DNA of 64,000 bases from positions 27,268 to 91,267 of the forward strand of contig CAZHHW010000001.1 of the NCBI GenBank assembly GCA_964532385.1, written 5' to 3'. Under the pieces are notes generated by a model, which saw nothing but the letters and a program-made list of their open reading frames with translations, did no database searches and was not told where the DNA came from. The stretch is from an uncultured Gammaproteobacteria bacterium (GTDB taxonomy: Bacteria > Pseudomonadota > Gammaproteobacteria > SG8-11). The translations under genes were made by a program, and so were the position numbers. This document shows positions 2 through 20,913 of the stretch, piece after piece. The first letter of the stretch is position 1. Each line of letters starts with the position of its first letter.

Positions 2-1102
2 GCGCTTGTCTATCCCGATGTGTCACTTACCGCGGTTGAATTATCGCAAGGGGCGATCCTCGCGGCACGCGACTGGTTCGCCCCAGTGAACGGCGGCATT
101 GTAAATCGCATGCGCATCGTTCGCGACGATGCGCGCCGTTTTCTGAGCAGCGAAACCGCGCTCTACGACGTGATTATCGGTGACCTGTTTCATCCCGACC
201 TGGCCGGGCGCAGCGCACTTTTGTCAGTGGAGCAATTTGCCCGGGCAAAGGCGCGCTTGCGCGACGGCGGGCTGTTTGTGCAGTGGATCGCATTGAATCA
301 ATTTGATGCGTCAAGTCTTGATATAGTATTGCGCAGTTTCAACCAGACTTTTCCGCATGCCGTGGTGTTCCTCGATCCATTTCGTCTGGCGTTGGTGGGT
401 AGCAAAAATCGCGTCGTGAACGCCCCCGCGGTGTTGGCGAATCTTGCGCGTTTATCCGCTGACACGCAGGACGGTGCAACCGGCGGTGAAGGTGAATGGA
501 CCTGGCTCGGACGTTATTTCGGGCCGATCCAAGCACTGCTGGACGACGGCGGTGATGTGCAGCATGAGATGGCGCCGCGTATTGAATATTTACTGCCCAA
601 GGCGCGTTATCGCGGCGAGCTTGACCTGGCGGCGCTGTTAACCAAATTACTCAAACAACGTCCCGCATGGCAGCGGGCTGCCGAAGAGCTGAGCGTGCCG
701 GCCGAGGCGCGCCCCGGATTCGAAAAAGCCTATGCAGCCACCGAGTTGGCCTTGGCCGGCTGGATCGCTACGCTGCGAGGACAGGGCAGCGAAGGCAGTC
801 GGTTATTGCAACTCGCGTATCAAGCTAATCCGCACGATCGCTGGGTGGGCGTTGCCTTGGTCACGCCGATCTGGACTCAGCTCGAAACCCTGCTGCGCCA
901 AGGTGCACGGGTGCAAGATACCTTCGGTAAAGATACGCGCGATGTATTGACCGCAATTCTGCGTATTCGCCCTGACCATGTGCCTGCATTAAAAATGCTG
1001 CTTGAGCTTGAACGCAGCGCGGATAATAAAGCGCGAGTTGCAGAGTTGCGTGCGCGCTTGATGCAGCTCAGCCCGCTGGATCGTGACAATAAAATTCTTT
1101 AG
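2..1102 (+). CDS. Spermidine-synthase-like (PABS fold) protein with C-terminal TPR-like region. The 5' end is truncated by the window edge.
   Basis: The reading frame is open from position 2 with no in-frame stop upstream of the listed GTG at 20. The 'DVIIGDLFHPD...LFVQW' segment resembles the C-terminal half of the spermidine synthase fold. TPR-like helices follow after residue ~200. Confidence 0.45.
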   Translation, partial: ALVYPDVSLTAVELSQGAILAARDWFAPVNGGIVNRMRIVRDDARRFLSSETALYDVIIGDLFHPDLAGRSALLSVEQFARAKARLRDGGLFVQWIALNQFDASSLDIVLRSFNQTFPHAVVFLDPFRLALVGSKNRVVNAPAVLANLARLSADTQDGATGGEGEWTWLGRYFGPIQALLDDGGDVQHEMAPRIEYLLPKARYRGELDLAALLTKLLKQRPAWQRAAEELSVPAEARPGFEKAYAATELALAGWIATLRGQGSEGSRLLQLAYQANPHDRWVGVALVTPIWTQLETLLRQGARVQDTFGKDTRDVLTAILRIRPDHVPALKMLLELERSADNKARVAELRARLMQLSPLDRDNKIL

Positions 1103-1314
1103 ATCGTCTTAAATTCAAGACCGTGATACCTGCTCAACGTCCGTTGAACGTGCGGGTTATGACATTTTTCATTGTAGTTTCCGGAACGGCTTGATGTAAT
1201 ATGCGCGCCTGACAACTTTGGTGTTTGTAGAGAACGCCTACCTCGGCAGATTTATCGTGCCCCGTTGTACCGATAATAAAGTCACGGGAATAGGCTTAAC
1301 CTCGGGAGTATTCC

Positions 1315-2007
1315 ATGCACAGATTTTCCGATAATTCCGCAGCTCATCCGCATGCCCAGCGTTATCTCGGTGCCGTGCTGGCGACCTTGTATTTGCTCTT
1401 GTCCGTGGGCCTGGCTGACGTCGCACAACGTGAATCGATCAAGACCGATCCGCGGTATCAGGATCCCGCGCTGCTTCAAATCGCGTGGGCGTTACCGGTC
1501 GCAAAAACCTATCGAGAGAGTTTTGAATATCAAGTAAATCCCATGTTTTGTGGACCCGCCACCGCCGTGAATGTGTTGAAATCGCTGGGCATTAAAAATT
1601 TTCAACAATCCAATGTGTTTAATTCCTCGAGCATCACTTATTTCAAAGCGCTCGCCATGGGATTAACGCTCGATGAAATGGCAACCCTGCTACACGACAC
1701 AAGCGGCTGGAAAGTGATCGCGTTGCACGACCTGACCTTGGCGCAGTTCCGTGAGCATCTCAAACGCAGCAATGACCCAGCATTGCGCTACACCATTAAT
1801 TTTCATCGCAAGCCACTGTGGGGATACAGCGCGGGCCACCACTCGCCCATCGGGGGCTATCTGGAAAAAGAAGATCTGGTGTTTGTGCTGGATGTATACG
1901 ATCCATTCAAACCGTTTTTGGTAAGCAGTGAAAGGCTCTTTGAAGCCATGAATACCGTGGATGATGAATCCCATAAAACGCGCGGTTTGCTGTTGCTTTC
2001 ACGCTAA
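1315..2007 (+). CDS. Exported phytochelatin-synthase-like papain-fold protein
   Basis: An N-terminal hydrophobic segment is followed by 'NPMFCGPATAVNVL', a plausible catalytic Cys. The 'GHHSPIGGY' segment matches the PCS catalytic-His signature 'GHFSPIGGY'. A Shine-Dalgarno 'GGGAG' lies upstream. Confidence 0.55.
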   Translation: MHRFSDNSAAHPHAQRYLGAVLATLYLLLSVGLADVAQRESIKTDPRYQDPALLQIAWALPVAKTYRESFEYQVNPMFCGPATAVNVLKSLGIKNFQQSNVFNSSSITYFKALAMGLTLDEMATLLHDTSGWKVIALHDLTLAQFREHLKRSNDPALRYTINFHRKPLWGYSAGHHSPIGGYLEKEDLVFVLDVYDPFKPFLVSSERLFEAMNTVDDESHKTRGLLLLSR

Positions 2008-2136
2008 AAATTCCAAAATTACAGCCCGCCGGAGAATAGTTGTACCTCCGAGACGAATGGCGGGTTTCGCAGATCATGCATACGTTTCTTGTAGATCTGA
2101 AGTGAAAAAAACAGCCGAAAATGCTATTGTGCGCCC

Positions 2137-3459
2137 ATGTCACGTAGCATCAGCTCGCTCAGCAAAATCCCGGTCAGCGTGGTTGCCATCAAGGCCGATA
2201 CCCGCCTGCATTGGCAGCGGCGCGCCGTGCAAATTGCCACCCTCGTGTTGGCTCTATTAATTCCTGTCAGCGGCTTGTTTCGCATCGACCCGGTGGCGGG
2301 AGCATTTACGATTCTCGACCGTCAGGTCTGGTGGGCGGACTTTTTTCTGGTATTCGGTTTCTGGATCATGCTGGCGGCACTGATGGTCACCGTCTATTCG
2401 TTCGTCGGTACCGCATTTTGCGGCTGGTCGTGTCCACAAAATACATTATCGGAGTGGGCCAACCAGCTCACACACAAACTGCTGGGACGCCGCGCCGAAG
2501 TCATCAATCTCAGCACGAGCGGAAAAATGCAGGTGGCGGCGGCGAAAAACAAATGGACGCACTGGCTGCTGCTGGGCGCGATTCTGTTCATCATGTCGGC
2601 AGTGGTCGCTTTGATTCCGCTGTTTTATTTTTATCCACCCAGCGCCGTGTGGGCCTTCGTGACATTTTCCAGTGATGCGCGGCTGGCGAGTTCGCTGCAT
2701 TTTATTTATTTTATTTTCGTGCTGGTGATTCTGCTCGACGTGGCGTTTATCCGCCATTACTGGTGCCGCTTCATGTGTGTGTACAAAGTATGGCAGCATG
2801 GTTTCAAAACCCAGCAAACCTTGCACATCGCCTATGACGCGACGCGCAGCGCCGATTGCGAAGGCTGCAATTATTGTGTCACGTCCTGCTTCATCGATTT
2901 GGACCCGCGTAAAACCGACATGTACGACACCTGCATCAATTGCGGCGAATGTATTACCGCATGCAACAAGATGCATGCAAAATCCGGCACATCGGGTCTG
3001 CTGAAATTCGCCATCGGCGCACGCAGCGGCTCCGGCAAGTTGCGCGCTGTGCTGCGCACCGCCGTGGGTTCATTGTCGCAACGCATGCAAATGACCGTGC
3101 CTATCGCATTGCTTGGCGTGGGGATGTTTGTATGGGGCTTGTGGAGCTATCAGGGTTATCACTTGGCGGTGTATCAGTCCAATACCAATCATGGTGCGCA
3201 AATCAACGATTACCGGGTGGCGGTGTCCAATAAAGTGTATCGCCCCGCGCATTTAGCGATAAGCATCGACGGATTGCCTGCTGAAAGTTATTCCTTGGCG
3301 ACGAGCGATGCGCGCTTCAACGGCACCGGCCGCGTGGATATCAACTTGCACATCGCCGCAGGGCTGGCGCCAGGTATTCACACATTCCTGGTGCGCGTGC
3401 GCGCCGACGATGGTTGGGCAGACAGTTATCGAGTGCAACATTTTGTAGCGCGAGGTTAA
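2137..3459 (+). CDS. FixG/CcoG/RdxA-family polytopic membrane 4Fe-4S ferredoxin with C-terminal Ig-like domain
   Basis: Multiple TM helices are present. Two CxxCxxCxxxC clusters occur ('CEGCNYCVTSC', 'CINCGECITAC'). The C-terminal beta-rich ~100 aa resembles the FixG_C/IPT domain. Confidence 0.6.
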   Translation: MSRSISSLSKIPVSVVAIKADTRLHWQRRAVQIATLVLALLIPVSGLFRIDPVAGAFTILDRQVWWADFFLVFGFWIMLAALMVTVYSFVGTAFCGWSCPQNTLSEWANQLTHKLLGRRAEVINLSTSGKMQVAAAKNKWTHWLLLGAILFIMSAVVALIPLFYFYPPSAVWAFVTFSSDARLASSLHFIYFIFVLVILLDVAFIRHYWCRFMCVYKVWQHGFKTQQTLHIAYDATRSADCEGCNYCVTSCFIDLDPRKTDMYDTCINCGECITACNKMHAKSGTSGLLKFAIGARSGSGKLRAVLRTAVGSLSQRMQMTVPIALLGVGMFVWGLWSYQGYHLAVYQSNTNHGAQINDYRVAVSNKVYRPAHLAISIDGLPAESYSLATSDARFNGTGRVDINLHIAAGLAPGIHTFLVRVRADDGWADSYRVQHFVARG

Positions 3460-3463
3460 AGTT

Positions 3464-3910
3464 ATGAACGATACCGAAAAAAACGAACCCATCGGCCCCG
3501 TGGTTTCGAAAGGCGACTGGGGTGTGATACCGCAAGACAATTTTGGCTATACCTCGAATGAAGAGCGGCGCCAGAAACGCGGCCTCGAGGATTGGGAAAT
3601 GGTCGAAACCATACCTGAATCACAAGAGCGTGTGCCGCCCTGGTTTTTTGCCGTGATTGGCGCAGTGCTGCTCATGGCGATCGGCTTGAGTTTTCCGTTT
3701 TGGGGTGTACGTCCCGGCCATGAACGGCCCTGGCTGGACTGGGGTTTCGGTTTGGCGATTATTTATCTGGTGGTTTTCGGCACTTTTGTTTATTTCATGG
3801 TGAATTTCTACGGCTCCAAACTCGCGGGCCGGCTGGATTCCGATAAAGAAAATACGGACGTGCAGGCACAAGCCTCGGCTGCGAGCGAGAATGTCCCGGA
3901 AAAAAAGTAG
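3464..3910 (+). CDS. Hypothetical 2-TM membrane protein
   Basis: Two hydrophobic helices. The gene is tightly packed after the CcoG-like gene. The 'PPWFF' segment is reminiscent of the CcoP N-terminal PxWW motif, but this is weak. Confidence 0.4.
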   Translation: MNDTEKNEPIGPVVSKGDWGVIPQDNFGYTSNEERRQKRGLEDWEMVETIPESQERVPPWFFAVIGAVLLMAIGLSFPFWGVRPGHERPWLDWGFGLAIIYLVVFGTFVYFMVNFYGSKLAGRLDSDKENTDVQAQASAASENVPEKK

Positions 3911-4187
3911 TCTGCCGTGGATTGCCGCGCTGCTATTAAATGCGTGTAGTGCTCCCTTGCCCACACCGCCGCCGCTGCCCGATGCGGCGTCGCCCGTTGC
4001 GCAATTAATGTCCGACCGCTGCGGGCGCTGCCACGGCGCACCGCATCCCGCGCTGCATTCCGCCAATGAATGGCCAAACGTGGTGTTCCGCATGCAGAAG
4101 CATATGGCGCAAAAAGGTCAGCAAGCCTTGACCCCGGCTGAATATTCCACCGTGCTTGAGTATCTGCAAAAGCACGCGCGGCCATGA
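3891..4187 (+). CDS. Small lipoprotein with a single CXXCH haem-binding motif (putative monohaem c-type cytochrome)
   Basis: Signal peptide with lipobox 'LLNAC'. The 'CGRCH' motif is present. The gene overlaps its neighbours, consistent with an operon. Confidence 0.45.
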   Translation: MSRKKSSLPWIAALLLNACSAPLPTPPPLPDAASPVAQLMSDRCGRCHGAPHPALHSANEWPNVVFRMQKHMAQKGQQALTPAEYSTVLEYLQKHARP

Positions 4188-4564
4188 AGGCCTGGGTGTG
4201 GCTGGTTTTGACTTTTTCGCTGGCGGGATGTTCGAACGATATTCCGATTTACCGGTTCACACCGCAGCAGTGGAACGATGTCGTCATCACCGTTGAAGCC
4301 CGCCCCGGTCCCACGGCGGGGGCAGTCTGCGAGTTTTTGATCATGGCTTCCTTCGCCAACAATACCCCTGCGCACAGCATCATGGTGTCGATCCGCATGA
4401 ATGATCAGGGGCCGTGGAAACAGGCCATTCAGGACGGCATGGTGGGCGTATATCGGCGCTCGGATCGCGTCGATAATCTGGATACCGATGTGTTGTACAT
4501 CCAGATGAAGCGCAAAGACGAAGAGGGAGTGCTGCGCTTTGCGCTAAAAGATCGGCAGATTTAA
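4184..4564 (+). CDS. Hypothetical lipoprotein (position suggests a FixH/CcoH-like role)
   Basis: Lipobox 'LAGCS'. ATGA overlap with the upstream gene. Beta-rich periplasmic domain. Confidence 0.4.
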   Translation: MKAWVWLVLTFSLAGCSNDIPIYRFTPQQWNDVVITVEARPGPTAGAVCEFLIMASFANNTPAHSIMVSIRMNDQGPWKQAIQDGMVGVYRRSDRVDNLDTDVLYIQMKRKDEEGVLRFALKDRQI

Positions 4565-4565
4565 G

Positions 4566-6548
4566 TTACGTCCTAGTGAAACACGCTCCCCGCTTGTCGA
4601 TGTATTGCGAGTGCAGCATTTGCACCGTCAGCACCAGCATCATGATCCATTCCAGCTTCATTAATGCGTAATACGAGCTCATATCGGTGGGTGTTTGCGC
4701 TTGCTCAATGCGCGTGCGCAGTGCGTGCACGTGCCCGGGGTCGAATACACCCGCATCATTCAATGCCTGTCTTGACAAATAAGGTTCGAGCAGCGCGTGT
4801 TGCGCCGGTGTGAAAAACCATGTGCGTATCGGCGTATAAAATGCTTTTTTCTTGAATTGTCCCGGATGCGGCGGCAAATGCGGCAACGCGATTTTTTTCA
4901 ACAGGTATTTTTCATCCATGCCGCGCAGTTTGAGATCGGGCGGGATGCGCGCGGCCAGTTCCACCAGCGGATGATCCAAAAAAGGCACGCGTGCTTCCAC
5001 GCCATGCGCCATGCTCATGCGGTCGCTGCGCCATAGAATCCAGCCCGGCAGGCGCGTCTTGGTTTCGATATACAACGACTGGTTCACGCGATGCCGGCCT
5101 TCGACCTGCGGCTTCATCGCCGCGGCCAGTTCATGTATGGGATCAGTAACGTGCGCAGCTTGCGCGAAATCCGGATTAAACAAACCCGGCAACTGGTCGG
5201 CTGTGATTTGCCAGAAATCTTGCCACGCCGGATAACAGCCGTAGCGATCGATCACCTGGCGCTGTTGTTCCGCTGCATGTTGCGTGTAAAGCATCTGTAT
5301 AAACGGCTCGGAAAAATTTTGCGTGTATTGCGTGAAGTACAGCAGCTCGCGCAGTTGCGGGTCGCGAATCTCGTTACCCCACAAGCGCATGTAATCCTGC
5401 CGGTAGCAGTCGTAACCAGCGAGGATTTCATCCGCTCCGTCGCCGGTATAGACCACCTTGTAACGGTTATTTTGTACCAGGCTTGACAATAAAAAATAAG
5501 GGACGTCCAATGCCATGCGTTGGGGCTGTTCCAGATGGTAAATCGCGGCTTCCAGCTCGTGAACGTAGCCTTCCGCTTTGCCTTCCTCCATCGTGACTTC
5601 GGTATTGCCGACGTTCAAATGCTGCGCGATAGCTCGATAAAGCGGCGATTCATCCAACGTGCTGTCGGCGAAATGCACTGAGAAAGTTTGCACCGGCTTA
5701 CCGTACGACTCGCCCAGCAACCAGGTCAACGCCGACGAGTCGATCCCGCCCGACAGATAAGCGCCGATCGGTACTTCACCGATCGTATGACTGGCCGCCG
5801 CATCTTCCAGCGCAGCGCGAAATTCGCGAGTCCAGAATTGTTCGTCATGCGACTCGTATTCATGTTCGCGCGGAAAATTGAGATCCCAATACTGTGTGAT
5901 TTTTGGCGCTTGTCCCGGATAGGCCATGATATGGCACCCGGGCGGCAATTCCAGCACGCCGGCAAAAGGCGTGTGCGGGCTGATTGCGAATTGATAGGTG
6001 AAATAACTGCGAATCGCGGCCGGGTTAAAACGTGGCTCCAACAACCCGGATGCGAACAACGCCTTGATCTCCGATGCGGCAATCAAGTGCTCACCGCTCC
6101 AGTGATAAAACAGAGGCTTGATGCCCAAGCGGTCACGCGCGATAAACAACGTGTGCGTCAGCGCGTCGTGCACCGCAAAGCTGAACATGCCGCGCAATTT
6201 ATGCACACACTCGGCACCTTCGCGGCGGTACAAATGCAAGATCACTTCGGTATCGGAGGCGCCGGCAAACTGCACGCCGTCGGCCTCCAGCGCGCTACGC
6301 AATTCCCGATAGTTGTAGATCTCGCCGTTAAAAATAATCGCGTGCCGTTGATCCGTGCTCACCATCGGCTGCGCTCCCCCGGCTACGTCAACGATGGAAA
6401 GTCGCGTGTGGCCCAAGGCGGCTTCATCTCGCAGTTCCACCGCATGCGCGTCCGGCCCGCGATGATTGAGCGCACGAGTCATGCGCTCGATCCGTTGCCG
6501 TTCAGGCGTTACGCCGCCACGGTGAAAAATAAGAGCGATGCCGCACAT
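4566..6548 (-). CDS. asnB: Asparagine synthase (glutamine-hydrolysing)
   Basis: The N-terminus 'MCGIALIFH' is the Ntn amidotransferase Cys2 motif. The 'SGGIDSS' PP-loop is present. The tracked ORF extends 19 codons upstream; the internal Met immediately before the Cys is the likely start. Confidence 0.85.
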   Translation of the reverse strand: MCGIALIFHRGGVTPERQRIERMTRALNHRGPDAHAVELRDEAALGHTRLSIVDVAGGAQPMVSTDQRHAIIFNGEIYNYRELRSALEADGVQFAGASDTEVILHLYRREGAECVHKLRGMFSFAVHDALTHTLFIARDRLGIKPLFYHWSGEHLIAASEIKALFASGLLEPRFNPAAIRSYFTYQFAISPHTPFAGVLELPPGCHIMAYPGQAPKITQYWDLNFPREHEYESHDEQFWTREFRAALEDAAASHTIGEVPIGAYLSGGIDSSALTWLLGESYGKPVQTFSVHFADSTLDESPLYRAIAQHLNVGNTEVTMEEGKAEGYVHELEAAIYHLEQPQRMALDVPYFLLSSLVQNNRYKVVYTGDGADEILAGYDCYRQDYMRLWGNEIRDPQLRELLYFTQYTQNFSEPFIQMLYTQHAAEQQRQVIDRYGCYPAWQDFWQITADQLPGLFNPDFAQAAHVTDPIHELAAAMKPQVEGRHRVNQSLYIETKTRLPGWILWRSDRMSMAHGVEARVPFLDHPLVELAARIPPDLKLRGMDEKYLLKKIALPHLPPHPGQFKKKAFYTPIRTWFFTPAQHALLEPYLSRQALNDAGVFDPGHVHALRTRIEQAQTPTDMSSYYALMKLEWIMMLVLTVQMLHSQYIDKRGACFTRT

Positions 6549-6658
6549 GTTGTAGTCGCCGCTGAATGCCGTGGGGTAGTGTAGCGTGGACGTACGCCGA
6601 TACAAACGCGCGGTCGTTGCAACATGGGCTTTGCAAAATCATCGAAAACAGTTGCAGA

Positions 6659-6708: not shown

Positions 6709-8133
6709 TCAGCTGTCGATTTCGGCAGTATTTGCGGTCAGTACGCCATTGCTGAACAGACCGGTGATTTCAAGCGTGTCGCCCACCTGCACCGACCCCA
6801 TGTTCAGAAGAGCAGACAATTCGACGGTAATTCCGGCAATGGTGACTTGCGTGCCGGAGATTGCAGTCACGGGACCTTGCAATTTCACATCCATGGTGGT
6901 GCCGATATCACCATCATGCTCAAGCTTGGTTGCGACCAGCATGCCGTTCTCGATGGCAATATGCAGGTCGACGCTATCGCCGACCGCCAAGGTGCCAAGC
7001 GAAAAGTCATGCTTGACCTCGTCGTCTTGCTTGCCGATGAGCATGCTCAACGAATTCACGAATACCGTTTGACCCAGCACGGTGATGGTGCCCGCAGTGG
7101 TGTCGATGGCTTCGACATTGGCCCGAATCTTGATGCTCGCTTCATGACGGAATTTAATTTCATCCGCAACCAGCTTGCCATCCGCGTTCAAGGTGCCTTC
7201 AACTTCCAGCTTAGCGTCGACCGTGAGGGCGTCGGCCGTACCATTTTCAAATTCGGTGCCGCTGTCCACCAGCACGGTTTGGCCATTGAGTACAAACTCG
7301 GTTTTATCTGCATTGACCGAGCTCACCACGCCTTCGAGTTCGAACTCGTCGCCGGATTTGCCGTCGACACCTTTTTTGCCGTCGCCTTCAATTTCGACCT
7401 TGGTCGCCATCAACATGTTGTCGGCGGTAGGTGCGGTGTTGCTCTTCACTTCCACGTACAGGCCATTGGCAAGTGTGTGCTCAACTTGCGCGTCGCCGTA
7501 GTGAACCATGAGTGTGCCGAGCATGAAGGTCTGAGCGGTCGTATCCAATTCCGCGATGACGCCTTTCACTTCGATTTCGTCGCCCGCGTCCAGCGCGGCT
7601 TTTTTCACTTCCACGCGCGTGGCGAGAATGGTGCCGGTGCCTGAGGAATAGCCGCTGACTTCTACGATATTGCCTTCTGCGACATCGCCGATACCGGCGA
7701 TCGAGGTGACTTTGCTTTCAAACACCGTCGCCGCATCAATCGTCACGGTTTGACCCATCACAGTTAGTGTGCCGGTTCCATCCGCAGCTATATTTGTGGC
7801 TGTGACAATGCCTTCGAGTTCGTCGGCGTAGTTAATGTGGGTGGCGGTGCCGTGGATACCATCTTTATTCACACTGCCTTCGACAGTGACGACCATGCCG
7901 ATTTTCAGATTGCTGTCCTGGCCGGCAACTCCGTCGAGGATGACGCTGCTGCTGCCGGTTTCATATTCGACACCGTTGACGAACACGCTGCCGAAACCGG
8001 TAATAACACCGGTATGCTTCAGGCCTGTTGTGCTGGCCGCTCCGGTGCTGGAAGATGTGCCGCTGTTGCAGCCGGCAAAAGCCAAGGCTCCGAAAACGGC
8101 CAGCGCGATGGCTTTGTGTTGAAATGGTTTCAT
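6709..8133 (-). CDS. Multi-repeat lipoprotein (DUF5666-like OB/beta repeats), paralog A
   Basis: The signal peptide 'MKPFQHKAIALAVFGALAFAGC' carries a lipobox. About six ~75-aa repeats of the form 'G.I..F.V.G..V.V...T.FE...G..VEV.G' are present. The protein is about 50% identical to the 9198..10568 product. Confidence 0.6.
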   Translation of the reverse strand: MKPFQHKAIALAVFGALAFAGCNSGTSSSTGAASTTGLKHTGVITGFGSVFVNGVEYETGSSSVILDGVAGQDSNLKIGMVVTVEGSVNKDGIHGTATHINYADELEGIVTATNIAADGTGTLTVMGQTVTIDAATVFESKVTSIAGIGDVAEGNIVEVSGYSSGTGTILATRVEVKKAALDAGDEIEVKGVIAELDTTAQTFMLGTLMVHYGDAQVEHTLANGLYVEVKSNTAPTADNMLMATKVEIEGDGKKGVDGKSGDEFELEGVVSSVNADKTEFVLNGQTVLVDSGTEFENGTADALTVDAKLEVEGTLNADGKLVADEIKFRHEASIKIRANVEAIDTTAGTITVLGQTVFVNSLSMLIGKQDDEVKHDFSLGTLAVGDSVDLHIAIENGMLVATKLEHDGDIGTTMDVKLQGPVTAISGTQVTIAGITVELSALLNMGSVQVGDTLEITGLFSNGVLTANTAEIDS

Positions 8134-8193
8134 GATGTGTCTCCAGTGCAAGTCGTTTTAAGGGTGATATTTTCTGTGCGATTTTTGGGAGTT

Positions 8194-8364: not shown

Positions 8365-9201
8365 ATGGCCCACGATCAACGCCAACATGCTTTATTTAAT
8401 GCGGTCGCCAAGCTGCTGCGGCCGCTTATTCGCATGTTGTTACGGCATGGCGTTCCCTATGCCGCATTTGCCGATCTTGCAAAACGCGAATATGTAAATG
8501 TGGCTGCGGAAGAATTCGAAGTACCCGGTCGCAAACAAACCAACTCGCGCGTGGCGACGATCACCGGGTTGTCGCGTAAGGAAGTCCAGCGCGTAAAAAC
8601 GCTGGAAGGCATCGGTGATCCCATCGATGCCGTCGAAAAATATCATCGTGCCGCGCGCGTGGTTTCCGGCTGGGTGCATACGCAACAATTTTGCGGCAAA
8701 AATTCAGAGCCCTTGCCGCTACCCTTCGACGGTGGCGACATTAGTTTTAGTGCGCTGGTAAAAATGTTCAGCGGCGATGTGCCGCCGCGCGCCGTGCTTG
8801 ATGAATTAATGCGCAATGGTCTGGTGGAGCGCGACGCCGACGGCCAATTGCGCCTGGTGCAACGCGTCTATATCCCGAAATCCGGTGAGATCGAAAAGCT
8901 CGGCATTCTCGGCACCGATGTCGCGGGATTGATTGCGACCATCGATCACAACATTCAAGTGGGGGCAAAAGACCCATATTTTCAGCGCAAGGTGTACTAC
9001 GACAACCTGTCCGAAGAAGCGGTCGCCGAGTTACGGCTTTTGATCGCCGAGCGCAGTCAGGTGCAGCTCGAATTCATCAATCACTGGATGGCACAGCGTG
9101 ACCGCGACGTGAACCCGCAGGCGGGCGGAACCGGGCGTAAAGCAGCAGGTATCGGCATTTATTACTTCGAAGAGCAGGATTCGCAGGAGAAGAAGTCATG
9201 A
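8365..9201 (+). CDS. Putative HTH transcriptional regulator (uncharacterised family)
   Basis: The 'SRVATITGLSRKEVQRV' segment is helix-turn-helix-like. The gene sits between the two paralogous lipoprotein genes, and its stop overlaps the next start. Confidence 0.45.
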   Translation: MAHDQRQHALFNAVAKLLRPLIRMLLRHGVPYAAFADLAKREYVNVAAEEFEVPGRKQTNSRVATITGLSRKEVQRVKTLEGIGDPIDAVEKYHRAARVVSGWVHTQQFCGKNSEPLPLPFDGGDISFSALVKMFSGDVPPRAVLDELMRNGLVERDADGQLRLVQRVYIPKSGEIEKLGILGTDVAGLIATIDHNIQVGAKDPYFQRKVYYDNLSEEAVAELRLLIAERSQVQLEFINHWMAQRDRDVNPQAGGTGRKAAGIGIYYFEEQDSQEKKS

Positions 9202-10568
9202 GCGTATTTCGTGCAAGCCGCGTTGCCATTCTCGCTTTGTTATTGCACGCCTGTGCGGGCGGTAGCGAAACCGGGACCGGACTGAACAATGGCTCGGGTG
9301 GAAAGGATATGTCGGTGGGAACCATTACCAAATTCGGCAGCGTGTGGGTGAATGGGGTGGAATTTGAGACCACTGCGACGCAGGTTAAGCTGGAAGGCGC
9401 CAGCGCTCCCACCACGGCATTGAAGCTCGGCATGGTGGTTACGGTGAAAGGAAAAATTAATGCGGACGGCATCAGCGGCATTGCCGATACGATTTTGGCG
9501 GAAGAAGTCATCAAGGGGCCGATCAGCGCCATGGGCACCAATTCGTTCACTGTGTTAGGCCAGGACATCGTCGTGAACGAAGCCACCCGTTTCGAAGACA
9601 ATTTAATGCTCAATGCGCTAGCGGCAGGCGATCTGATCGAAGTCAGCGGCATCGTCAAAAGTGCCGGTGTGATTACTGCCACCCGGGTGGAGCGCAAAAC
9701 CGAATTGACGGAATACAAACTCATGGGTGTGGTCAGTTCACTGATGCCCGGTGCGCATACCTTCATGATCGGCGGATTAACCGTGAATTACGCGAATGTG
9801 GAATTACCAAGTGGCGTTCCCGCCGACGGTTCACTGGTGGAAGTAAAAGGCACGCTCGACGGCGGCGCGCTTGTGGCGACCGGGGTCAAGGTCCAGGCTT
9901 TGGAAGTTGCCGATGCGGATAAATTCGAAATCGAAGGCTACATCGATTCCGTGAGCGGAGGTGGGATGTTTACCGTTAATCATGTCAATGTGCAGACCTC
10001 CGCCGCGACGCAATTCAAAGCGGGATTGATCACCGATCTGGTCGCGGGTGCCTTCGTGGAAATCGAAGGCAGCTTGCAAGGCGGCGTCGTCACGGCGACC
10101 AACGTGGAATTTAGAGAGCCTGTGAAGCTGGAGGCGGATGTGGCCACCAACATCGGCAACACGCTGACCCTGGGCGGACTGGACTCACTCGCCGTGACGA
10201 TTAACAGTGAAACCGAATACGAAGGCGAGGTTACCGGCCCGATCGGTATTTTGCCGGGTGTTCACGTCGCGGTGCGCGGCCGATATAACGCCGGCACGCA
10301 TCAAGTGATTGCCACCCGTATCGAGGTGCAGGCCGACAGTGATCCGAAGGTTGTATTGCAGGGTCCGGTTGATGTGTTGGCCAACCCGTCGCTGACGTTG
10401 ATGGGTCTGTCTGTGGATACAACTGGCATAGTGGAATTCGAAGCGGACGGGGTGAATGACAGGGATTCATTCTTCGCCGCGGTGACGGTGGGTGACATCG
10501 TCAATCTCTCAGGCACATTGCCTTTGAGCGGGGTTGTAAATTGGGAAAGCATCGAGTTGGAGAATTAA
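9198..10568 (+). CDS. Multi-repeat lipoprotein (DUF5666-like), paralog B
   Basis: Lipobox 'LLLHAC'. It has the same repeat architecture as the 6709..8133 product. Confidence 0.6.
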   Translation: MSVFRASRVAILALLLHACAGGSETGTGLNNGSGGKDMSVGTITKFGSVWVNGVEFETTATQVKLEGASAPTTALKLGMVVTVKGKINADGISGIADTILAEEVIKGPISAMGTNSFTVLGQDIVVNEATRFEDNLMLNALAAGDLIEVSGIVKSAGVITATRVERKTELTEYKLMGVVSSLMPGAHTFMIGGLTVNYANVELPSGVPADGSLVEVKGTLDGGALVATGVKVQALEVADADKFEIEGYIDSVSGGGMFTVNHVNVQTSAATQFKAGLITDLVAGAFVEIEGSLQGGVVTATNVEFREPVKLEADVATNIGNTLTLGGLDSLAVTINSETEYEGEVTGPIGILPGVHVAVRGRYNAGTHQVIATRIEVQADSDPKVVLQGPVDVLANPSLTLMGLSVDTTGIVEFEADGVNDRDSFFAAVTVGDIVNLSGTLPLSGVVNWESIELEN

Positions 10569-19521: not shown

Positions 19522-20913
19522 CTAAACGATGTATCGATCCCAGCCCGCGTAGGTATCCTTGACCGGCCCGCGCGGAATCGCCAGCGCAATCAAGGCCAGC
19601 CCGCATATCACGCTGTTCCAGACCGCCGGCGGTGCCGTGATGCCGTCGAGCAGCCAAGGCGCGGCGGTGAGCCAGGCACCGAACAGAATGTTGATAAAGC
19701 GCACGCTGCGCGCGACTTCCGCCCACGCCATAATGGAAAATGTCACGACCAGGGAGCCGACAAGATGATCGCTGTTCGCCATGGCGCCGCCGCTGTCGAA
19801 GGCGAGGCGTGTAAACATCAGCCAGATTCCAAGGGCGGTGCTCAGTATCAAGGTGATGGGAAAGGTCGCTCCACGCACGCCTTCCGGTATATTGCCGGCG
19901 GGCTCGGAAGCATCGGCGCGGCCGCCTTCCATCGCATCGCCCATCCAGAAAGTGCGCCAGAAAGGTTTATGTTTCTTGTATGCATCGACCAGAAATTGCC
20001 CGCTGGCGACGACTTCATCAAGCGAGTAGGGCACCATCAATGCCATCGCCAGCGCGGCGATCAGGCACAGCGTGCACCAGGTGCCGATCAAGATCGGCTG
20101 AATGATGATGAAGAATATGCTCACGCCGCCCAACGGCACGATCAATATGCCAAGACCCAGCACCATCCACGGCATGGTACGCCAGCGGTTCTTGCCGCCC
20201 ATTAAAGTCATCAGCACCTCGAGCATGTAGGCGACGGCGCCAAGACCGGCATCGGCGACCGGCCAGGCACGGGAGATATCCGAAGTGATGATGGTCATGG
20301 TGCCGTCACCGAAGAAGGGATCCCACGCACGATCCAGATGCCCGAGCTGGTAAGCGGCCATATAGCTTGCGATGAAAAATCCGATTAATCCCAACACGGC
20401 GATTGGCAGGCGTTGCGGCCAGCTTGCCGGCGAATAATTCCAGCCCGGTGGGATGTCCGGCCCGCCCATCATGCCGGCCACACTCATGCCCGGCATGGGC
20501 GGAATCAGCAGCGCTAAAGCGATCACCAGCGAACCGATCAGTGTGGAGTTGATGTAGGCCTGCGGCAGCGGTGTCCAGAACACCAGGGGTGCGAATAACA
20601 GCCACACCCCCACCGTGGCATTAGCCCATTGCGCCCACGGGAAACGGCGTGCCGGTGAAGCCGAAAGCGTGCTGAAAATCACCACCAGTATGCCGCTGAG
20701 CATGTCGCTCCACAGCATCGCGCGATTGCGCATTTCTATCGAAGGCAGGTCGCGCTCGCCCATTACGCGCAGCACATTGGCATCGGGAATCAATTCGTGC
20801 ATGTAGCCCAATACCCAGGGGCTTGCCAGCAGCCAGCTTCCTAATATCCAGTTCGCATAATGCGGCCAGCGTATTTTGCGATGCTGTTGTACCAGCCAGC
20901 CGTGCTCATTCAT
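19522..20913 (-). CDS. Polytopic membrane protein with SPW-repeat-like segments and a VKOR-like CxxC core
   Basis: 'SPWVLGY' and 'AAPWLLDG' are SPW-like. 'CTLC' lies within a TM helix. Confidence 0.4.
   Translation of the reverse strand: MNEHGWLVQQHRKIRWPHYANWILGSWLLASPWVLGYMHELIPDANVLRVMGERDLPSIEMRNRAMLWSDMLSGILVVIFSTLSASPARRFPWAQWANATVGVWLLFAPLVFWTPLPQAYINSTLIGSLVIALALLIPPMPGMSVAGMMGGPDIPPGWNYSPASWPQRLPIAVLGLIGFFIASYMAAYQLGHLDRAWDPFFGDGTMTIITSDISRAWPVADAGLGAVAYMLEVLMTLMGGKNRWRTMPWMVLGLGILIVPLGGVSIFFIIIQPILIGTWCTLCLIAALAMALMVPYSLDEVVASGQFLVDAYKKHKPFWRTFWMGDAMEGGRADASEPAGNIPEGVRGATFPITLILSTALGIWLMFTRLAFDSGGAMANSDHLVGSLVVTFSIMAWAEVARSVRFINILFGAWLTAAPWLLDGITAPPAVWNSVICGLALIALAIPRGPVKDTYAGWDRYIV

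What the first reader, a model, noticed from the sequence alone, without database searches (positions are those of the whole stretch)
1315..4564. Cluster of an exported phytochelatin-synthase-like enzyme, a FixG/CcoG-like Fe-S membrane protein, a CXXCH lipoprotein and a lipoprotein (periplasmic metal/redox module?)
CcoG/FixG homologues are normally found in ccoGHIS next to the cbb3 oxidase genes, and CcoG has been shown to act as a cupric reductase. Here the CcoG-like gene stands alone, with no ccoNOQP or ccoIS. It is followed by a two-TM protein, a tiny monohaem-like lipoprotein (CGRCH) and a second lipoprotein, all with overlapping stop/start codons. It is preceded by a secreted PCS-like papain-fold enzyme, a glutathione-processing fold associated with metal handling. 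Together this looks like an uncharacterised envelope electron-transfer and metal-handling unit.
Basis: partly seen in the sequence, partly recalled or inferred. Interest (0 to 1): 0.5.

Follow-up and report, generated by a model that had tools for sequence, protein, structure and literature searches.

The report
Tail of a divergent cbb3-oxidase cluster
The "stand-alone" CcoG-like gene and its three small neighbours are the conserved last genes of a large cluster for an unusual cbb3-type oxidase that the window edge cuts off; the cluster has been noted before in iron-oxidising and electrode-feeding bacteria, and the phytochelatin-synthase-like gene is a recent insertion found only in this lineage.

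Summary
All five ORFs exist as described: a PCS-like enzyme with an intact catalytic triad, a CcoG-like polyferredoxin, a 2-TM protein, a CXXCH lipoprotein and a second lipoprotein. The claim that CcoG "stands alone" is an artefact of the window edge. Position 1 falls inside a fused MFS/spermidine-synthase-like gene. In close relatives with the same local gene order, and in 52 of 55 relatives with enough upstream flank, that gene is preceded by a fixed set. The set is a divergent CcoN-like/CcoO-like oxidase, a haem-less CcoP-anchor-like protein, a CcoS-like protein, a monohaem cytochrome and an FGE-sulfatase-like protein.

Downstream of the polyferredoxin, the 2-TM protein is present in 79/79 loci, the second lipoprotein in 77/79 and the cytochrome lipoprotein in 56/79. 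The PCS-like gene occurs only in the 83-89% identity clade.

The polyferredoxin is a distant, full-length CcoG homologue with all four Cys motifs and a FixG-like C-terminal Ig domain. The 2-TM protein is a paralogue of the gene that follows ccoO. The second lipoprotein has a CopC/CrdA/P19-type fold but no conserved soft metal ligands.

The region is already described, but uncharacterised, in Tenderia and iron-oxidiser papers. My best reading is a copper-maturation and accessory module of that oxidase. Interest is modest.

The parts
2..1102 (+). C-terminal ~360 aa of a fused MFS/spermidine-synthase-like protein (about 875-880 aa in relatives). The gene is cut by the window start and is the conserved gene immediately upstream of the polyferredoxin.
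   Evidence: NCBIfam NF037959 scores 42.7 bits against a cut-off of 40, and Pfam Spermine_synth gives E=4.6e-4. The ORF is open from position 2 and scores 523 bits against the family HMM. The gene is present upstream in 63/67 loci. blastn shows co-linearity with L005 7288-8387.
1315..2007 (+). Exported half-size phytochelatin-synthase-like papain-fold enzyme (NsPCS/Alr0975 type). It is a lineage-specific insertion between the MFS/SpdSyn gene and the polyferredoxin gene.
   Evidence: Pfam PF05023 E=1.6e-31. It aligns to Alr0975 (2btw, 6th5) at E~2e-15 with the Cys/His/Asp triad conserved. It is present only in the window, L005/L054, L006, L009 and L089, and absent from about 80 other loci. GC is 0.505 against 0.55-0.58 for the neighbours.
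2137..3459 (+). CcoG/FixG-family membrane polyferredoxin. It has five TM helices, two CX3C motifs, two CX2CX2CX3C [4Fe-4S] motifs and a C-terminal periplasmic Ig-like domain.
3464..3910 (+). Two-TM hairpin protein with a highly conserved charged N-terminal segment. It is a paralogue of the 207-aa haem-less protein encoded directly after the ccoO-like gene in relatives (CcoP N-terminal anchor-like).
   Evidence: Present in 79/79 loci. BLASTP against p207 gives E=2e-5, and hhalign of the two family alignments gives 90% probability, E=1.5e-6, over 55 columns. p207 matches FixP_N at E=0.0018. 9/38 TM148 members match FixP_N weakly.
3891..4187 (+). Monohaem c-type cytochrome lipoprotein, with predicted His/Met ligation.
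   Evidence: CXXCH (C44, C47, H48), R67-M68 and W61 are invariant, and the lipobox Cys19 is nearly invariant, in 26 homologues. Pfam DHC scores 29.6 bits and Cytochrome_CBB3 gives E=1.9e-4. The gene is present in 56/79 loci. It is absent from the Gallionellaceae/Nitrosomonadales-type loci, where the preceding and following genes abut.
4184..4564 (+). Lipoprotein with a periplasmic Greek-key beta-sandwich of the CopC/CrdA and P19/FtrA type. It belongs to an unannotated family.

Best explanation
Genes 2137-4564 are the conserved 3' module of a 16-18-gene, co-directional cluster. In relatives the cluster begins with a divergent C-family (cbb3-like) haem-copper oxygen reductase. Its order is: CcoN-like, 316-aa CcoO-like, haem-less CcoP-anchor-like p207, a 44-aa peptide, small membrane proteins including a CcoS-like one, a monohaem cytochrome c, an FGE-sulfatase-like protein, and a fused MFS/spermidine-synthase-like protein. 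The window starts inside that last gene, so the oxidase genes are inferred, not seen, to lie about 6-8 kb upstream of position 1.

The polyferredoxin is a distant but full-length CcoG homologue. By homology to R. capsulatus CcoG, it most likely uses two cytoplasm-facing [4Fe-4S] clusters and two CX3C sites to reduce Cu(II) to Cu(I) for assembly of the CuB centre of the linked oxidase. This function is inferred.

Its three fixed partners most likely form the periplasm-facing part of the same maturation or accessory sub-complex, docking it to the oxidase. The partners are a hairpin protein paralogous to the oxidase's own CcoP-anchor-like subunit, a monohaem lipoprotein, and a CopC/P19-fold lipoprotein. 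This role is also inferred.

The PCS-like gene is a recent insertion specific to this lineage. It is a probably active, exported glutathione-cleaving enzyme and is not a core component.
For: Context:
- The window is co-linear with L005 (about 81% nt identity over the module, 75-83% elsewhere) and shares the SpdSyn-PCS-polyFd-148-126-|AsnSyn order with L089. Both carry the full oxidase cluster upstream.
- Across non-redundant loci, a CcoN-like gene lies upstream in 52/55, MFS/SpdSyn in 63/67, TM148 in 79/79, lipo126 in 77/79 and cyt c in 56/79.

The oxidase:
- The CcoN-like protein keeps His60, His207, Tyr251, His257/258 and His345/347 of P. stutzeri CcoN.
- It scores 219 bits against the 583-bit ccoN cut-off.
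- The 91-92-aa protein matches FixS at 23.2 bits against a cut-off of 23.1.

CcoG likeness:
- The best family hit is TIGR02745, covering model positions 29-381 of 435.
- All Cys motifs are invariant.
- FixG_C is detected in 15/89 members.
- Every listed tblastn hit with an annotated feature under the match is annotated CcoG/FixG.

Literature:
- CcoG is a cupric reductase with two [4Fe-4S] clusters, two Cu sites, an Ig-like periplasmic domain and an unknown electron donor (PMC7558416).
- The Tenderiales preprint lists the same gene order, including 'CcoG cbb3 maturation protein', a monohaem cytochrome and a truncated CcoN. It also notes that canonical FixG is missing from most Tenderiales although FixHIS are present.
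- The polyferredoxin plus three hypotheticals, Tel_00495-00510, were noted in Ca. Tenderia electrophaga. The three hypotheticals respond to electrode potential (PMC5371394).
Against: - The upstream oxidase genes are inferred by synteny and are not present in the window.
- The polyferredoxin scores far below the CcoG equivalog cut-off and is only 23-25% identical to annotated CcoG.
- No CcoI (Cu-ATPase), CcoH or Sco/PCuAC homologue was detected in the cluster.
- The lipoprotein family has no conserved His/Met/Cys ligands that would mark a Cu chaperone.
- In 3/55 loci (for example Tenderia L043) the module is detached from the oxidase genes, so it can be encoded separately.
- The cytochrome lipoprotein is dispensable in betaproteobacterial versions.
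- No biochemical data exist for any member.
Confidence: 0.6

Rival explanations
1. This is an electron-transfer module rather than a maturation module. TM148 (a FixP_N-like anchor) plus the monohaem lipoprotein act as a split, CcoP-like electron-entry subunit of the variant oxidase (the 'alternative complex IV'). The polyferredoxin is a NapH/NosH-type membrane redox partner that keeps periplasmic centres reduced or links them to a cytoplasmic or quinol donor.
For: TM148 is a paralogue of p207, the gene sitting where ccoP would be. p207 has a weak FixP_N match and no haem motif. The lipoprotein gives a Cytochrome_CBB3 hit at E=1.9e-4. NapH/MauN is the second-best family for the polyferredoxin, E=1.5e-12. 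In Tenderia the three small genes are regulated by electrode potential and cluster in expression with ATP synthase and an oxidase. The preprint authors read the region as a membrane complex, 'a sort of alternative complex IV'.
Against: The polyferredoxin has no haem b or quinone-site signature to carry electrons across the membrane. The CcoG family hit is 20 orders of magnitude better than NapH. The Ig-like C-terminal domain is a CcoG feature that smaller homologues such as E. coli YccM lack (PMC7558416). The cytochrome is missing from 23/79 loci while the rest of the module persists. The FixP_N matches for TM148 are weak (best E=0.04).
Confidence: 0.25
2. This is the first reader's model: a self-contained periplasmic metal-handling and detoxification unit (Cu/Cd), made of the PCS-like enzyme plus an orphan CcoG-like reductase and small redox proteins, and independent of any oxidase.
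For: The PCS-like triad is intact and the protein looks exported. The lipoprotein has a CopC/CrdA/P19-like fold. CcoG loss or overproduction changes Cu tolerance in R. capsulatus. CcoG homologues do occur away from cco genes in other bacteria, for example C. jejuni. In 3/55 loci the module is detached from the oxidase genes.
Against: PCS is present in only five closely related loci out of about 85. In 52/55 loci the module follows the oxidase genes in one orientation with short gaps. No metal-resistance genes (CopA, Cus, Czc) lie next to it in the window.
Confidence: 0.07
3. Periplasmic glutathione cleavage is a real accessory function of this cluster. The PCS-like enzyme in this lineage would replace the gamma-glutamyltranspeptidase found at the distal end of the cluster in other lineages, supplying a thiol (Cys-Gly or gamma-Glu-Cys) for Cu(I) or haem handling. 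This is compatible with the best explanation.
For: GGT sits at a fixed position just beyond the truncated-CcoN unit in 17/60 loci with enough flank, across several lineages. The window's clade lacks GGT there (no GGT in the 64-kb window or in L089) and instead carries the PCS-like gene inside the cluster.
Against: GGT is a common housekeeping gene, and its position could simply be inherited synteny. It is absent from most loci. No biochemical link is known. PCS and GGT release different products.
Confidence: 0.15

Closest known systems
CcoG/FixG (RdxB) cupric reductase of the ccoGHIS cbb3-oxidase assembly operon (R. capsulatus; TIGR02745; Pfam Fer4_5 + Fer4_18 + FixG_C)
   Same: The membrane architecture is the same. 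Two CX3C(P) motifs, two CX2CX2CX3C [4Fe-4S] motifs, a TM helix and then a periplasmic Ig-like domain are all present. The gene is encoded downstream of C-family oxidase genes in relatives.
   Different: Identity is only 23-25%, and the score is 112 bits against a 317-bit equivalog cut-off. The gene is followed by a FixP_N-like hairpin protein, a monohaem lipoprotein and a CopC-fold lipoprotein rather than by ccoH-ccoI-ccoS. It is preceded by a fused MFS/spermidine-synthase-like gene, and the linked oxidase is itself divergent.
The conserved 'cbb3-1/cbb3-2' region of Ca. Tenderia electrophaga and Tenderiales (Tel_00495-00510; ALP51739-51742), said there to be shared with freshwater iron oxidisers (PMC5371394; bioRxiv 10.1101/2022.05.06.490989). 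Possibly also the 20-gene ES-1/PV-1 suite of PMC3770913.
   Same: The gene order is the same: CcoN, CcoO, small proteins, monohaem cytochrome, ..., CcoG-like, hypothetical, monohaem cytochrome, hypothetical. Tenderia MAG loci (L036, L043, L044) share 54-56% identity with the window's polyferredoxin and the same downstream genes.
   Different: The window's clade has a PCS-like gene inserted before the polyferredoxin. It lacks the truncated-CcoN/Bact_hydrolase/35-aa (plus GGT) unit that follows on the opposite strand in 62/71 loci; an asparagine-synthase gene sits there instead. I did not verify by sequence that the Emerson 2013 suite is this same cluster.
NapH/MauN/NosH-type membrane polyferredoxins
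   Same: They share the Fer4_5 CX3CP membrane motifs and two cytoplasmic [4Fe-4S] motifs.
   Different: The score is much weaker (E=1.5e-12). No C-terminal Ig-like domain was looked for in NapH itself here; among CcoG homologues the shorter YccM type lacks it (PMC7558416). No Nap, Mau or Nos genes lie nearby.
Nostoc Alr0975 (NsPCS), the prokaryotic half-size phytochelatin-synthase-like enzyme
   Same: The papain-like fold family is the same. The Cys/His/Asp triad is conserved, there is no C-terminal Cys-rich domain, and there is an N-terminal export-like signal.
   Different: Similarity is low (E~2e-15). Here the gene is inserted into a respiratory oxidase cluster.
CopC/PcoC/CrdA and P19/FtrA/Tp34 periplasmic Cu/Fe-binding beta-sandwich proteins
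   Different: It has none of the Met-rich loop, His or Cys ligands that define those metal sites. Sequence identity is 6-12%.
CcoP (FixP) of cbb3 oxidases
   Same: TM148 and p207 share an N-terminal motif followed by a TM helix that resembles FixP_N. A c-type cytochrome gene follows TM148.
   Different: The anchor and the haem domain are separate genes. There is one haem rather than two. The FixP_N matches are weak.

Membership tests
CcoG/FixG | Two CX3C(P) motifs associated with the membrane helices (putative Cu sites) | tested here: met
   C95-x3-C99-P100 and C210-x3-C214 are invariant in 89 homologues. Fer4_5 E=5.5e-11.
CcoG/FixG | Two ferredoxin-type CX2CX2CX3C motifs for two [4Fe-4S] clusters | tested here: met
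   C241/244/247/251 and C266/269/272/276 are invariant. Fer4_18 E=4.2e-10.
CcoG/FixG | C-terminal periplasmic Ig-like domain (FixG_C) after a last TM helix | tested here: met
CcoG/FixG | Score at or above the NCBIfam equivalog cut-off (TIGR02745, 316.7 bits) | tested here: not met
   111.9 bits, E=3.6e-32. Identity to annotated CcoG/FixG is 23-25%. It is a divergent subfamily, not an equivalog.
CcoG/FixG | Encoded in ccoGHIS next to ccoNOQP | tested here: inconclusive
   It is linked to divergent ccoN/ccoO-like genes and a CcoS-like gene in 52/55 relatives. No ccoH, ccoI, ccoP or ccoQ was detected by Pfam or NCBIfam. The window itself lacks the upstream part.
CcoG/FixG | Cu(II)-specific reductase activity | not testable with these tools
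   This needs purified protein and a BCS/BCA Cu(I) assay.
Canonical cbb3 oxidase (CcoNOQP), applied to the linked oxidase in relatives | CcoN haem b/b3 and CuB histidines plus the cross-linked tyrosine | tested here: met
   The alignment to 3mk7_A conserves His60, His207, Tyr251, His257/258 and His345/347.
Canonical cbb3 oxidase (CcoNOQP), applied to the linked oxidase in relatives | Equivalog-level CcoN and CcoO, and a dihaem CcoP | tested here: not met
   ccoN scores 219 bits against 583, and ccoO 66 against 201. The gene in the ccoP position (p207) has no CXXCH and only a weak FixP_N match.
Phytochelatin synthase-like (PF05023, NsPCS type) | Pfam gathering score and the Cys-His-Asp catalytic triad | tested here: met
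   109.6 bits against a cut-off of 24.9. The triad aligns with Alr0975. The gamma-Glu-Cys transpeptidase or hydrolase activity was not tested.
Class I c-type cytochrome (lipoprotein) | A CXXCH haem-attachment motif, a distal Met and an export signal | tested here: met
   C44, C47, H48 and M68 are invariant and the lipobox Cys19 is nearly invariant. Covalent haem itself cannot be tested here. Pfam 'DHC' is a dihaem family, but only one CXXCH is present.
CopC/CrdA or P19/FtrA periplasmic metal-binding proteins (126-aa lipoprotein) | Greek-key beta-sandwich fold | tested here: met
CopC/CrdA or P19/FtrA periplasmic metal-binding proteins (126-aa lipoprotein) | Met-rich Cu(I) loop and/or His Cu(II) site (CopC/CrdA) | tested here: not met
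   The family-invariant residues are W30, P41, E50, P62, R71, W78, Q80, I82, D84, G85, G88, R91, L117 and F119, apart from the lipobox Cys16. There is no conserved His, non-lipobox Cys or Met cluster. CrdA's MMXEMPGMXXMXEM motif (PMC9182242) is absent.
FixH/YtkA-like (126-aa lipoprotein) | Pfam FixH or YtkA match | tested here: inconclusive
   YtkA matches 4/30 members (best E=0.034) and FixH 1/30 (E=0.064). All are below the cut-offs.
CcoP N-terminal anchor (FixP_N), applied to the 148-aa protein | Pfam FixP_N match | tested here: inconclusive
   9/38 members match at E>=0.04, among other random TM hits. The paralogue p207 gives E=0.0018. Profile-profile comparison of TM148 with p207 gives 90% probability, E=1.5e-6.

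The most novel reading that the evidence does not exclude
The CcoG-type polyferredoxin, a FixP_N-like hairpin protein, a monohaem lipoprotein and a CopC/P19-fold lipoprotein form a dedicated four-component machine. This machine would couple a periplasmic c-type haem to a CcoG-type reductase. It would therefore reveal the still unknown physiological redox partner of CcoG enzymes and deliver metal to an 'alternative complex IV' specific to Fe(II)- and electrode-oxidising bacteria. Periplasmic glutathione cleavage, by the PCS-like enzyme here and by GGT elsewhere, would supply the thiol ligand.
Probability: 0.15. Interest if true: 0.65.

Novelty: new member of a known kind. Interest (0 to 1): 0.35.

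Why it matters
The finding itself becomes ordinary once the missing upstream genes are taken into account: it is a CcoG-type gene next to a cbb3-type oxidase.

The whole cluster remains biochemically uncharacterised, although it is widespread. It was found in 312 species-level genomes in one scan and in more than 900 protein clusters in metagenomes. In Ca. Tenderia electrophaga one of the alternative complex IV gene sets (IV-2) is among the most highly expressed genes; I did not check that this set is the oxidase of this cluster. The cluster is concentrated in lineages that live on Fe(II) or electrodes, such as Tenderia, Gallionellaceae and Sideroxydans.

Three points from this analysis give concrete handles for experiments on how this variant oxidase is assembled and fed:
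- The gene after the polyferredoxin is a paralogue of the oxidase's CcoP-anchor-like subunit.
- The last lipoprotein has a copper/iron-chaperone fold without the usual ligands.
- Glutathione-cleaving enzymes recur at the cluster.

Tried and rejected
- gNOR/nNOR-type nitric-oxide reductase. I considered this for the linked oxidase and rejected it. [quoted passage not shown] The CcoN-like protein here keeps the O2-reductase tyrosine and all three CuB histidines.
- CcoA-like Cu importer role for the MFS part of the upstream gene. No conserved MxxxM/HxxxM-type motif appears among residues that are at least 95% conserved. Left open.
- Sequence search of the lipoprotein profile against the PDB. Nothing significant was found (best E=1.3).
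- Pfam scans of the TM148 and lipoprotein families gave only weak or ambiguous hits.
- Exact-sequence look-up of the window's polyferredoxin: not on record.
- The AlphaFold-DB fold library was unavailable, so the polyferredoxin model was compared only with the PDB.
- Rfam and tRNA scans of the window found nothing.
- The promoter/terminator scan of 900-4800 found no more sites than shuffled controls and no terminator in the intergenic gaps.
- The GC content of the PCS-like gene is only slightly lower than that of its neighbours, which is weak evidence for recent transfer.
- The Marckmann 2019 CcoG paper is not held, so CcoG properties are cited from reviews.
- The reference list of the Tenderiales preprint is not held, so I could not confirm that its 'ref 34' is Emerson 2013.

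Full report
OBSERVATION.
- The 230-aa protein (1315-2007) matches Pfam Phytochelatin at E=1.6e-31. It aligns to Nostoc Alr0975 with the Cys/His/Asp triad intact and has an N-terminal hydrophobic signal-like segment.
- The 440-aa protein (2137-3459) has Fer4_5 and Fer4_18 domains. Its best NCBIfam family is ccoG_rdxA_fixG, E=3.6e-32, covering almost the whole model, but it scores 112 bits against a 317-bit equivalog cut-off.
- The 148-aa protein (3464-3910) is a two-TM hairpin.
- The 98-aa protein (3891-4187) is a lipoprotein with a single CGRCH motif.
- The 126-aa protein (4184-4564) is a lipoprotein with an LAGC lipobox.
- Two of the three junctions overlap, by 20 nt and 4 nt. The polyferredoxin/TM148 junction has a 4-nt gap.
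- No cco-like ORF lies elsewhere in the 64-kb window. The other large ORFs I scanned are ordinary chromosomal genes: flagellar export, type II secretion, class I adenylate cyclase, RecJ and others.

THE WINDOW EDGE CUTS THE CLUSTER. The ORF at 2-1102 is open at the window start. It is the C-terminal 360 aa of a fused MFS/spermidine-synthase-like protein that is 872-881 aa long in relatives.
- The polyferredoxin has more than 900 homologues in metagenomes.
- For six homologues I fetched genomic context.
- A scan of one genome per species found 312 further loci, of which 80 were fetched.
- The window is co-linear at about 81% nt identity over the module (75-83% elsewhere) with L005, a Gammaproteobacteria MAG.
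- The window has the same local order, SpdSyn-PCS-polyFd-148-(cyt c)-126-|AsnSyn, as L089, a 244-kb contig.
- Upstream in both relatives the order is: CcoN-like (468 aa), CcoO-like (316 aa), 207 aa, 44 aa, about 100 aa, 92 aa, cytochrome c (168 aa), about 156 aa, FGE-sulfatase-like (353 aa), two small ORFs, then the MFS/SpdSyn gene.
- By synteny with L089, the ccoO-like gene would end about 5.8 kb upstream of window position 1 and the ccoN-like gene would start about 8 kb upstream. This is inferred, not seen.

CO-CONSERVATION. I called ORFs in all loci and classified them with iterated HMMs built from the cluster proteins. Counts are over non-redundant loci with enough flank.
- CcoN-like gene upstream on the same strand: 52/55.
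- MFS/SpdSyn directly upstream: 63/67.
- TM148: 79/79.
- The 126-aa lipoprotein: 77/79.
- The cytochrome lipoprotein: 56/79. It is missing mostly from Gallionellaceae/Nitrosomonadales-type loci, where TM148 abuts the lipoprotein gene.
- A truncated-CcoN/Bact_hydrolase/35-aa unit on the opposite strand downstream: 62/71. The window's clade lacks it and has an asparagine-synthase gene there.
- The PCS-like gene occurs only in the window, L005/L054, L006, L009 and L089, that is, in the 83-89% identity clade. L005/L006 also have a GNAT gene there. PCS is therefore a lineage-specific insertion and not part of a conserved five-gene unit.
- In three loci (for example Tenderia L043, where TPR proteins and a sigma-54 regulator lie upstream) the four-gene module is detached from the oxidase genes.

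THE LINKED OXIDASE.
- The CcoN-like protein's best PDB matches are cbb3 CcoN chains, E=2e-60.
- The alignment conserves His60, His207, Tyr251, His257/258 and His345/347 of P. stutzeri CcoN.
- It is therefore predicted to be an O2 reductase of the C family, not an NO reductase (compare PMC11214002).
- It is divergent, scoring 219 bits against a 583-bit cut-off. The CcoO-like protein carries a ~160-aa N-terminal extension.
- The gene in the ccoP position (p207) has no CXXCH and only a weak FixP_N match.
- A 91-92-aa protein just reaches the FixS (CcoS) gathering score.
- No CcoH, CcoI or CcoQ was detected.

THE FOUR MODULE PROTEINS.

(i) Polyferredoxin.
- All sixteen Cys of the two CX3C and two CX2CX2CX3C motifs are invariant in 89 homologues.
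- The AF2 model (pLDDT 79) has five TM helices. From that model I infer a cytoplasmic ferredoxin domain, modelled at low confidence.
- FixG_C is weakly detectable by sequence in 15/89 members.
- Against plasmid-borne genes it is 23-25% identical over about 85% of its length; every listed hit with an annotated feature is annotated CcoG/FixG.
- It is a distant, full-length member of the CcoG family, not an equivalog.

(ii) TM148.
- It has a very conserved N-terminal segment (WGE.P.DNFGYASDEERRAKRGLEDWE..IPESQ..VP.WF) followed by FPFWG.RPG.
- It is a paralogue of p207: BLASTP E=2e-5, and hhalign 90% probability, E=1.5e-6.
- The shared segment resembles the CcoP N-terminal anchor, but only weakly.

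(iii) The cytochrome.
- CXXCH, R67-M68 and W61 are invariant, and the lipobox Cys is nearly so.
- It is a credible His/Met monohaem lipoprotein.

(iv) The 126-aa lipoprotein.
- It belongs to a family of at least 1242 unnamed proteins without a Pfam domain.
- The AF2 model (pLDDT 91) is a Greek-key beta-sandwich.
- The family's invariant residues (W30, E50, W78, Q80, D84, G85, G88, R91 and others) include none of the Met-rich or His ligands that define CopC/CrdA sites.
- The fold is suggestive. Metal binding is not shown.

WHAT IS ALREADY KNOWN.
[quoted passage not shown] Tenderia electrophaga, within a region syntenic with Mariprofundus contigs. The three hypotheticals were more highly expressed at the lower electrode potential (PMC5371394).
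- The Tenderiales preprint draws the same order: CcoN, CcoO, ..., monohaem cytochrome, ..., 'CcoG cbb3 maturation protein', hypothetical, monohaem cytochrome, hypothetical, ..., truncated CcoN.
- That preprint calls the region 'a sort of alternative complex IV' and says it was previously seen in freshwater iron oxidisers. It also notes that canonical FixG is absent from most Tenderiales although FixHIS are present.
- Emerson et al. 2013 describe a 20-gene redox suite shared by Sideroxydans ES-1 and Mariprofundus PV-1. I did not verify by sequence that it is this cluster. Sideroxydans, Gallionella and Tenderia MAGs are among my loci.
- CcoG is an established Cu(II) reductase with two [4Fe-4S] clusters, two Cu sites, an Ig-like periplasmic domain of unknown role and an unknown electron donor (PMC7558416).
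- ccoG genes scattered away from ccoNOQP are known, for example in C. jejuni.

MECHANISM.

Shown:
- Gene content.
- Architecture and conservation.
- Linkage in relatives.

Inferred:
- This window's upstream region carries the oxidase genes.
- The polyferredoxin reduces Cu(II) to Cu(I) for CuB assembly of that oxidase.
- TM148, the cytochrome and the lipoprotein are its periplasm-facing partners.

Main rival: TM148 plus the cytochrome are a split CcoP-like electron-entry subunit, and the polyferredoxin is a NapH/NosH-like redox partner. Support comes from the paralogy with p207 and the potential-dependent expression. Against it are the much better CcoG match, the lack of any transmembrane haem or quinone signature, and the dispensability of the cytochrome in 23/79 loci.

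A side observation keeps a functional role for PCS alive.
- A gamma-glutamyltranspeptidase sits at a fixed position at the distal end of the cluster in 17/60 loci.
- The window's clade lacks a GGT there.
- That clade instead carries another exported glutathione-cleaving enzyme inside the cluster.

VERDICT.
- The 'orphan CcoG' reading is an edge artefact.
- The object is a new member of a gene cluster that has been noticed but not characterised, and it carries a lineage-specific insertion.
- Interest is modest (0.35), because a CcoG-type gene next to a C-family oxidase is expected.
- What remains of interest is that the whole variant-oxidase system and its three small partner families are unstudied.

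Noticed in passing
L004:14008-15699(-), L007:14041-15720(-), L043:13898-15652(-) and 14 further loci; absent from window 1-64000 and from L089: A gamma-glutamyltranspeptidase gene sits at a fixed position just beyond the truncated-CcoN unit in 17/60 loci with enough flank. The window's clade lacks it but carries the PCS-like gene, another periplasmic glutathione-cleaving enzyme, inside the cluster. This could be functional replacement or mere synteny.
   Followed up: partly
L001:19718-20985(-), and the equivalent position in 62/71 loci; absent from the window: A unit made of a Bact_hydrolase-domain protein, a truncated CcoN (169-186 aa, Pfam COX1) and a ~35-aa peptide lies on the opposite strand right after the module in most relatives. 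In the window's clade it is replaced by a convergent asparagine-synthase gene. Gallionella-type loci carry two truncated-CcoN copies plus a cytochrome.
   Followed up: no
window 4566-6605 (-): A glutamine-hydrolysing asparagine synthase homologue has its stop codon one base from the lipoprotein's stop (convergent genes). It scores 434 bits against the XrtA/PEP-CTERM amidotransferase model, well below that model's 817-bit cut-off.
   Followed up: no
window 6709-8151 (-), 8365-9201 (+), 9198-10568 (+): Two large DUF5666-repeat proteins flank a DUF6502 protein. The first of the two begins with a lipoprotein-like signal. The three families are uncharacterised and the set is not present at this position in L005 or L089.
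   Followed up: no
L038, L045, L051, L055, L063, L066, L076, L078, L080-L084, L086, L088 (betaproteobacterial-type loci): In these loci the monohaem lipoprotein gene is absent and the TM148 gene abuts the 126-aa lipoprotein gene. The cytochrome is therefore not an obligatory part of the module.
   Followed up: partly
L004 (GCA_975961635.1, contig CDLTCG010000049.1): This contig is labelled 'Kaarinaea lacus', which is a heterocytous cyanobacterium (PMC12281834). Yet it carries the gammaproteobacterial-type cluster at 62% identity, so it is probably a co-cultured bacterium binned into that assembly.
   Followed up: no
window 19522-20913 (-): A 463-aa protein combines a VKOR (vitamin K epoxide reductase) domain with SPW-repeat membrane domains. 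It lies next to an NAD-dependent epimerase/dehydratase gene.
   Followed up: no
L005:8619-9233(+) and L005:12499-12969(-); L006: The nearest relative has two GNAT acetyltransferase genes that the window lacks. One lies between MFS/SpdSyn and PCS, and the other between the lipoprotein gene and the asparagine-synthase gene. The borders of the module are therefore hotspots for small insertions in this clade.
   Followed up: no
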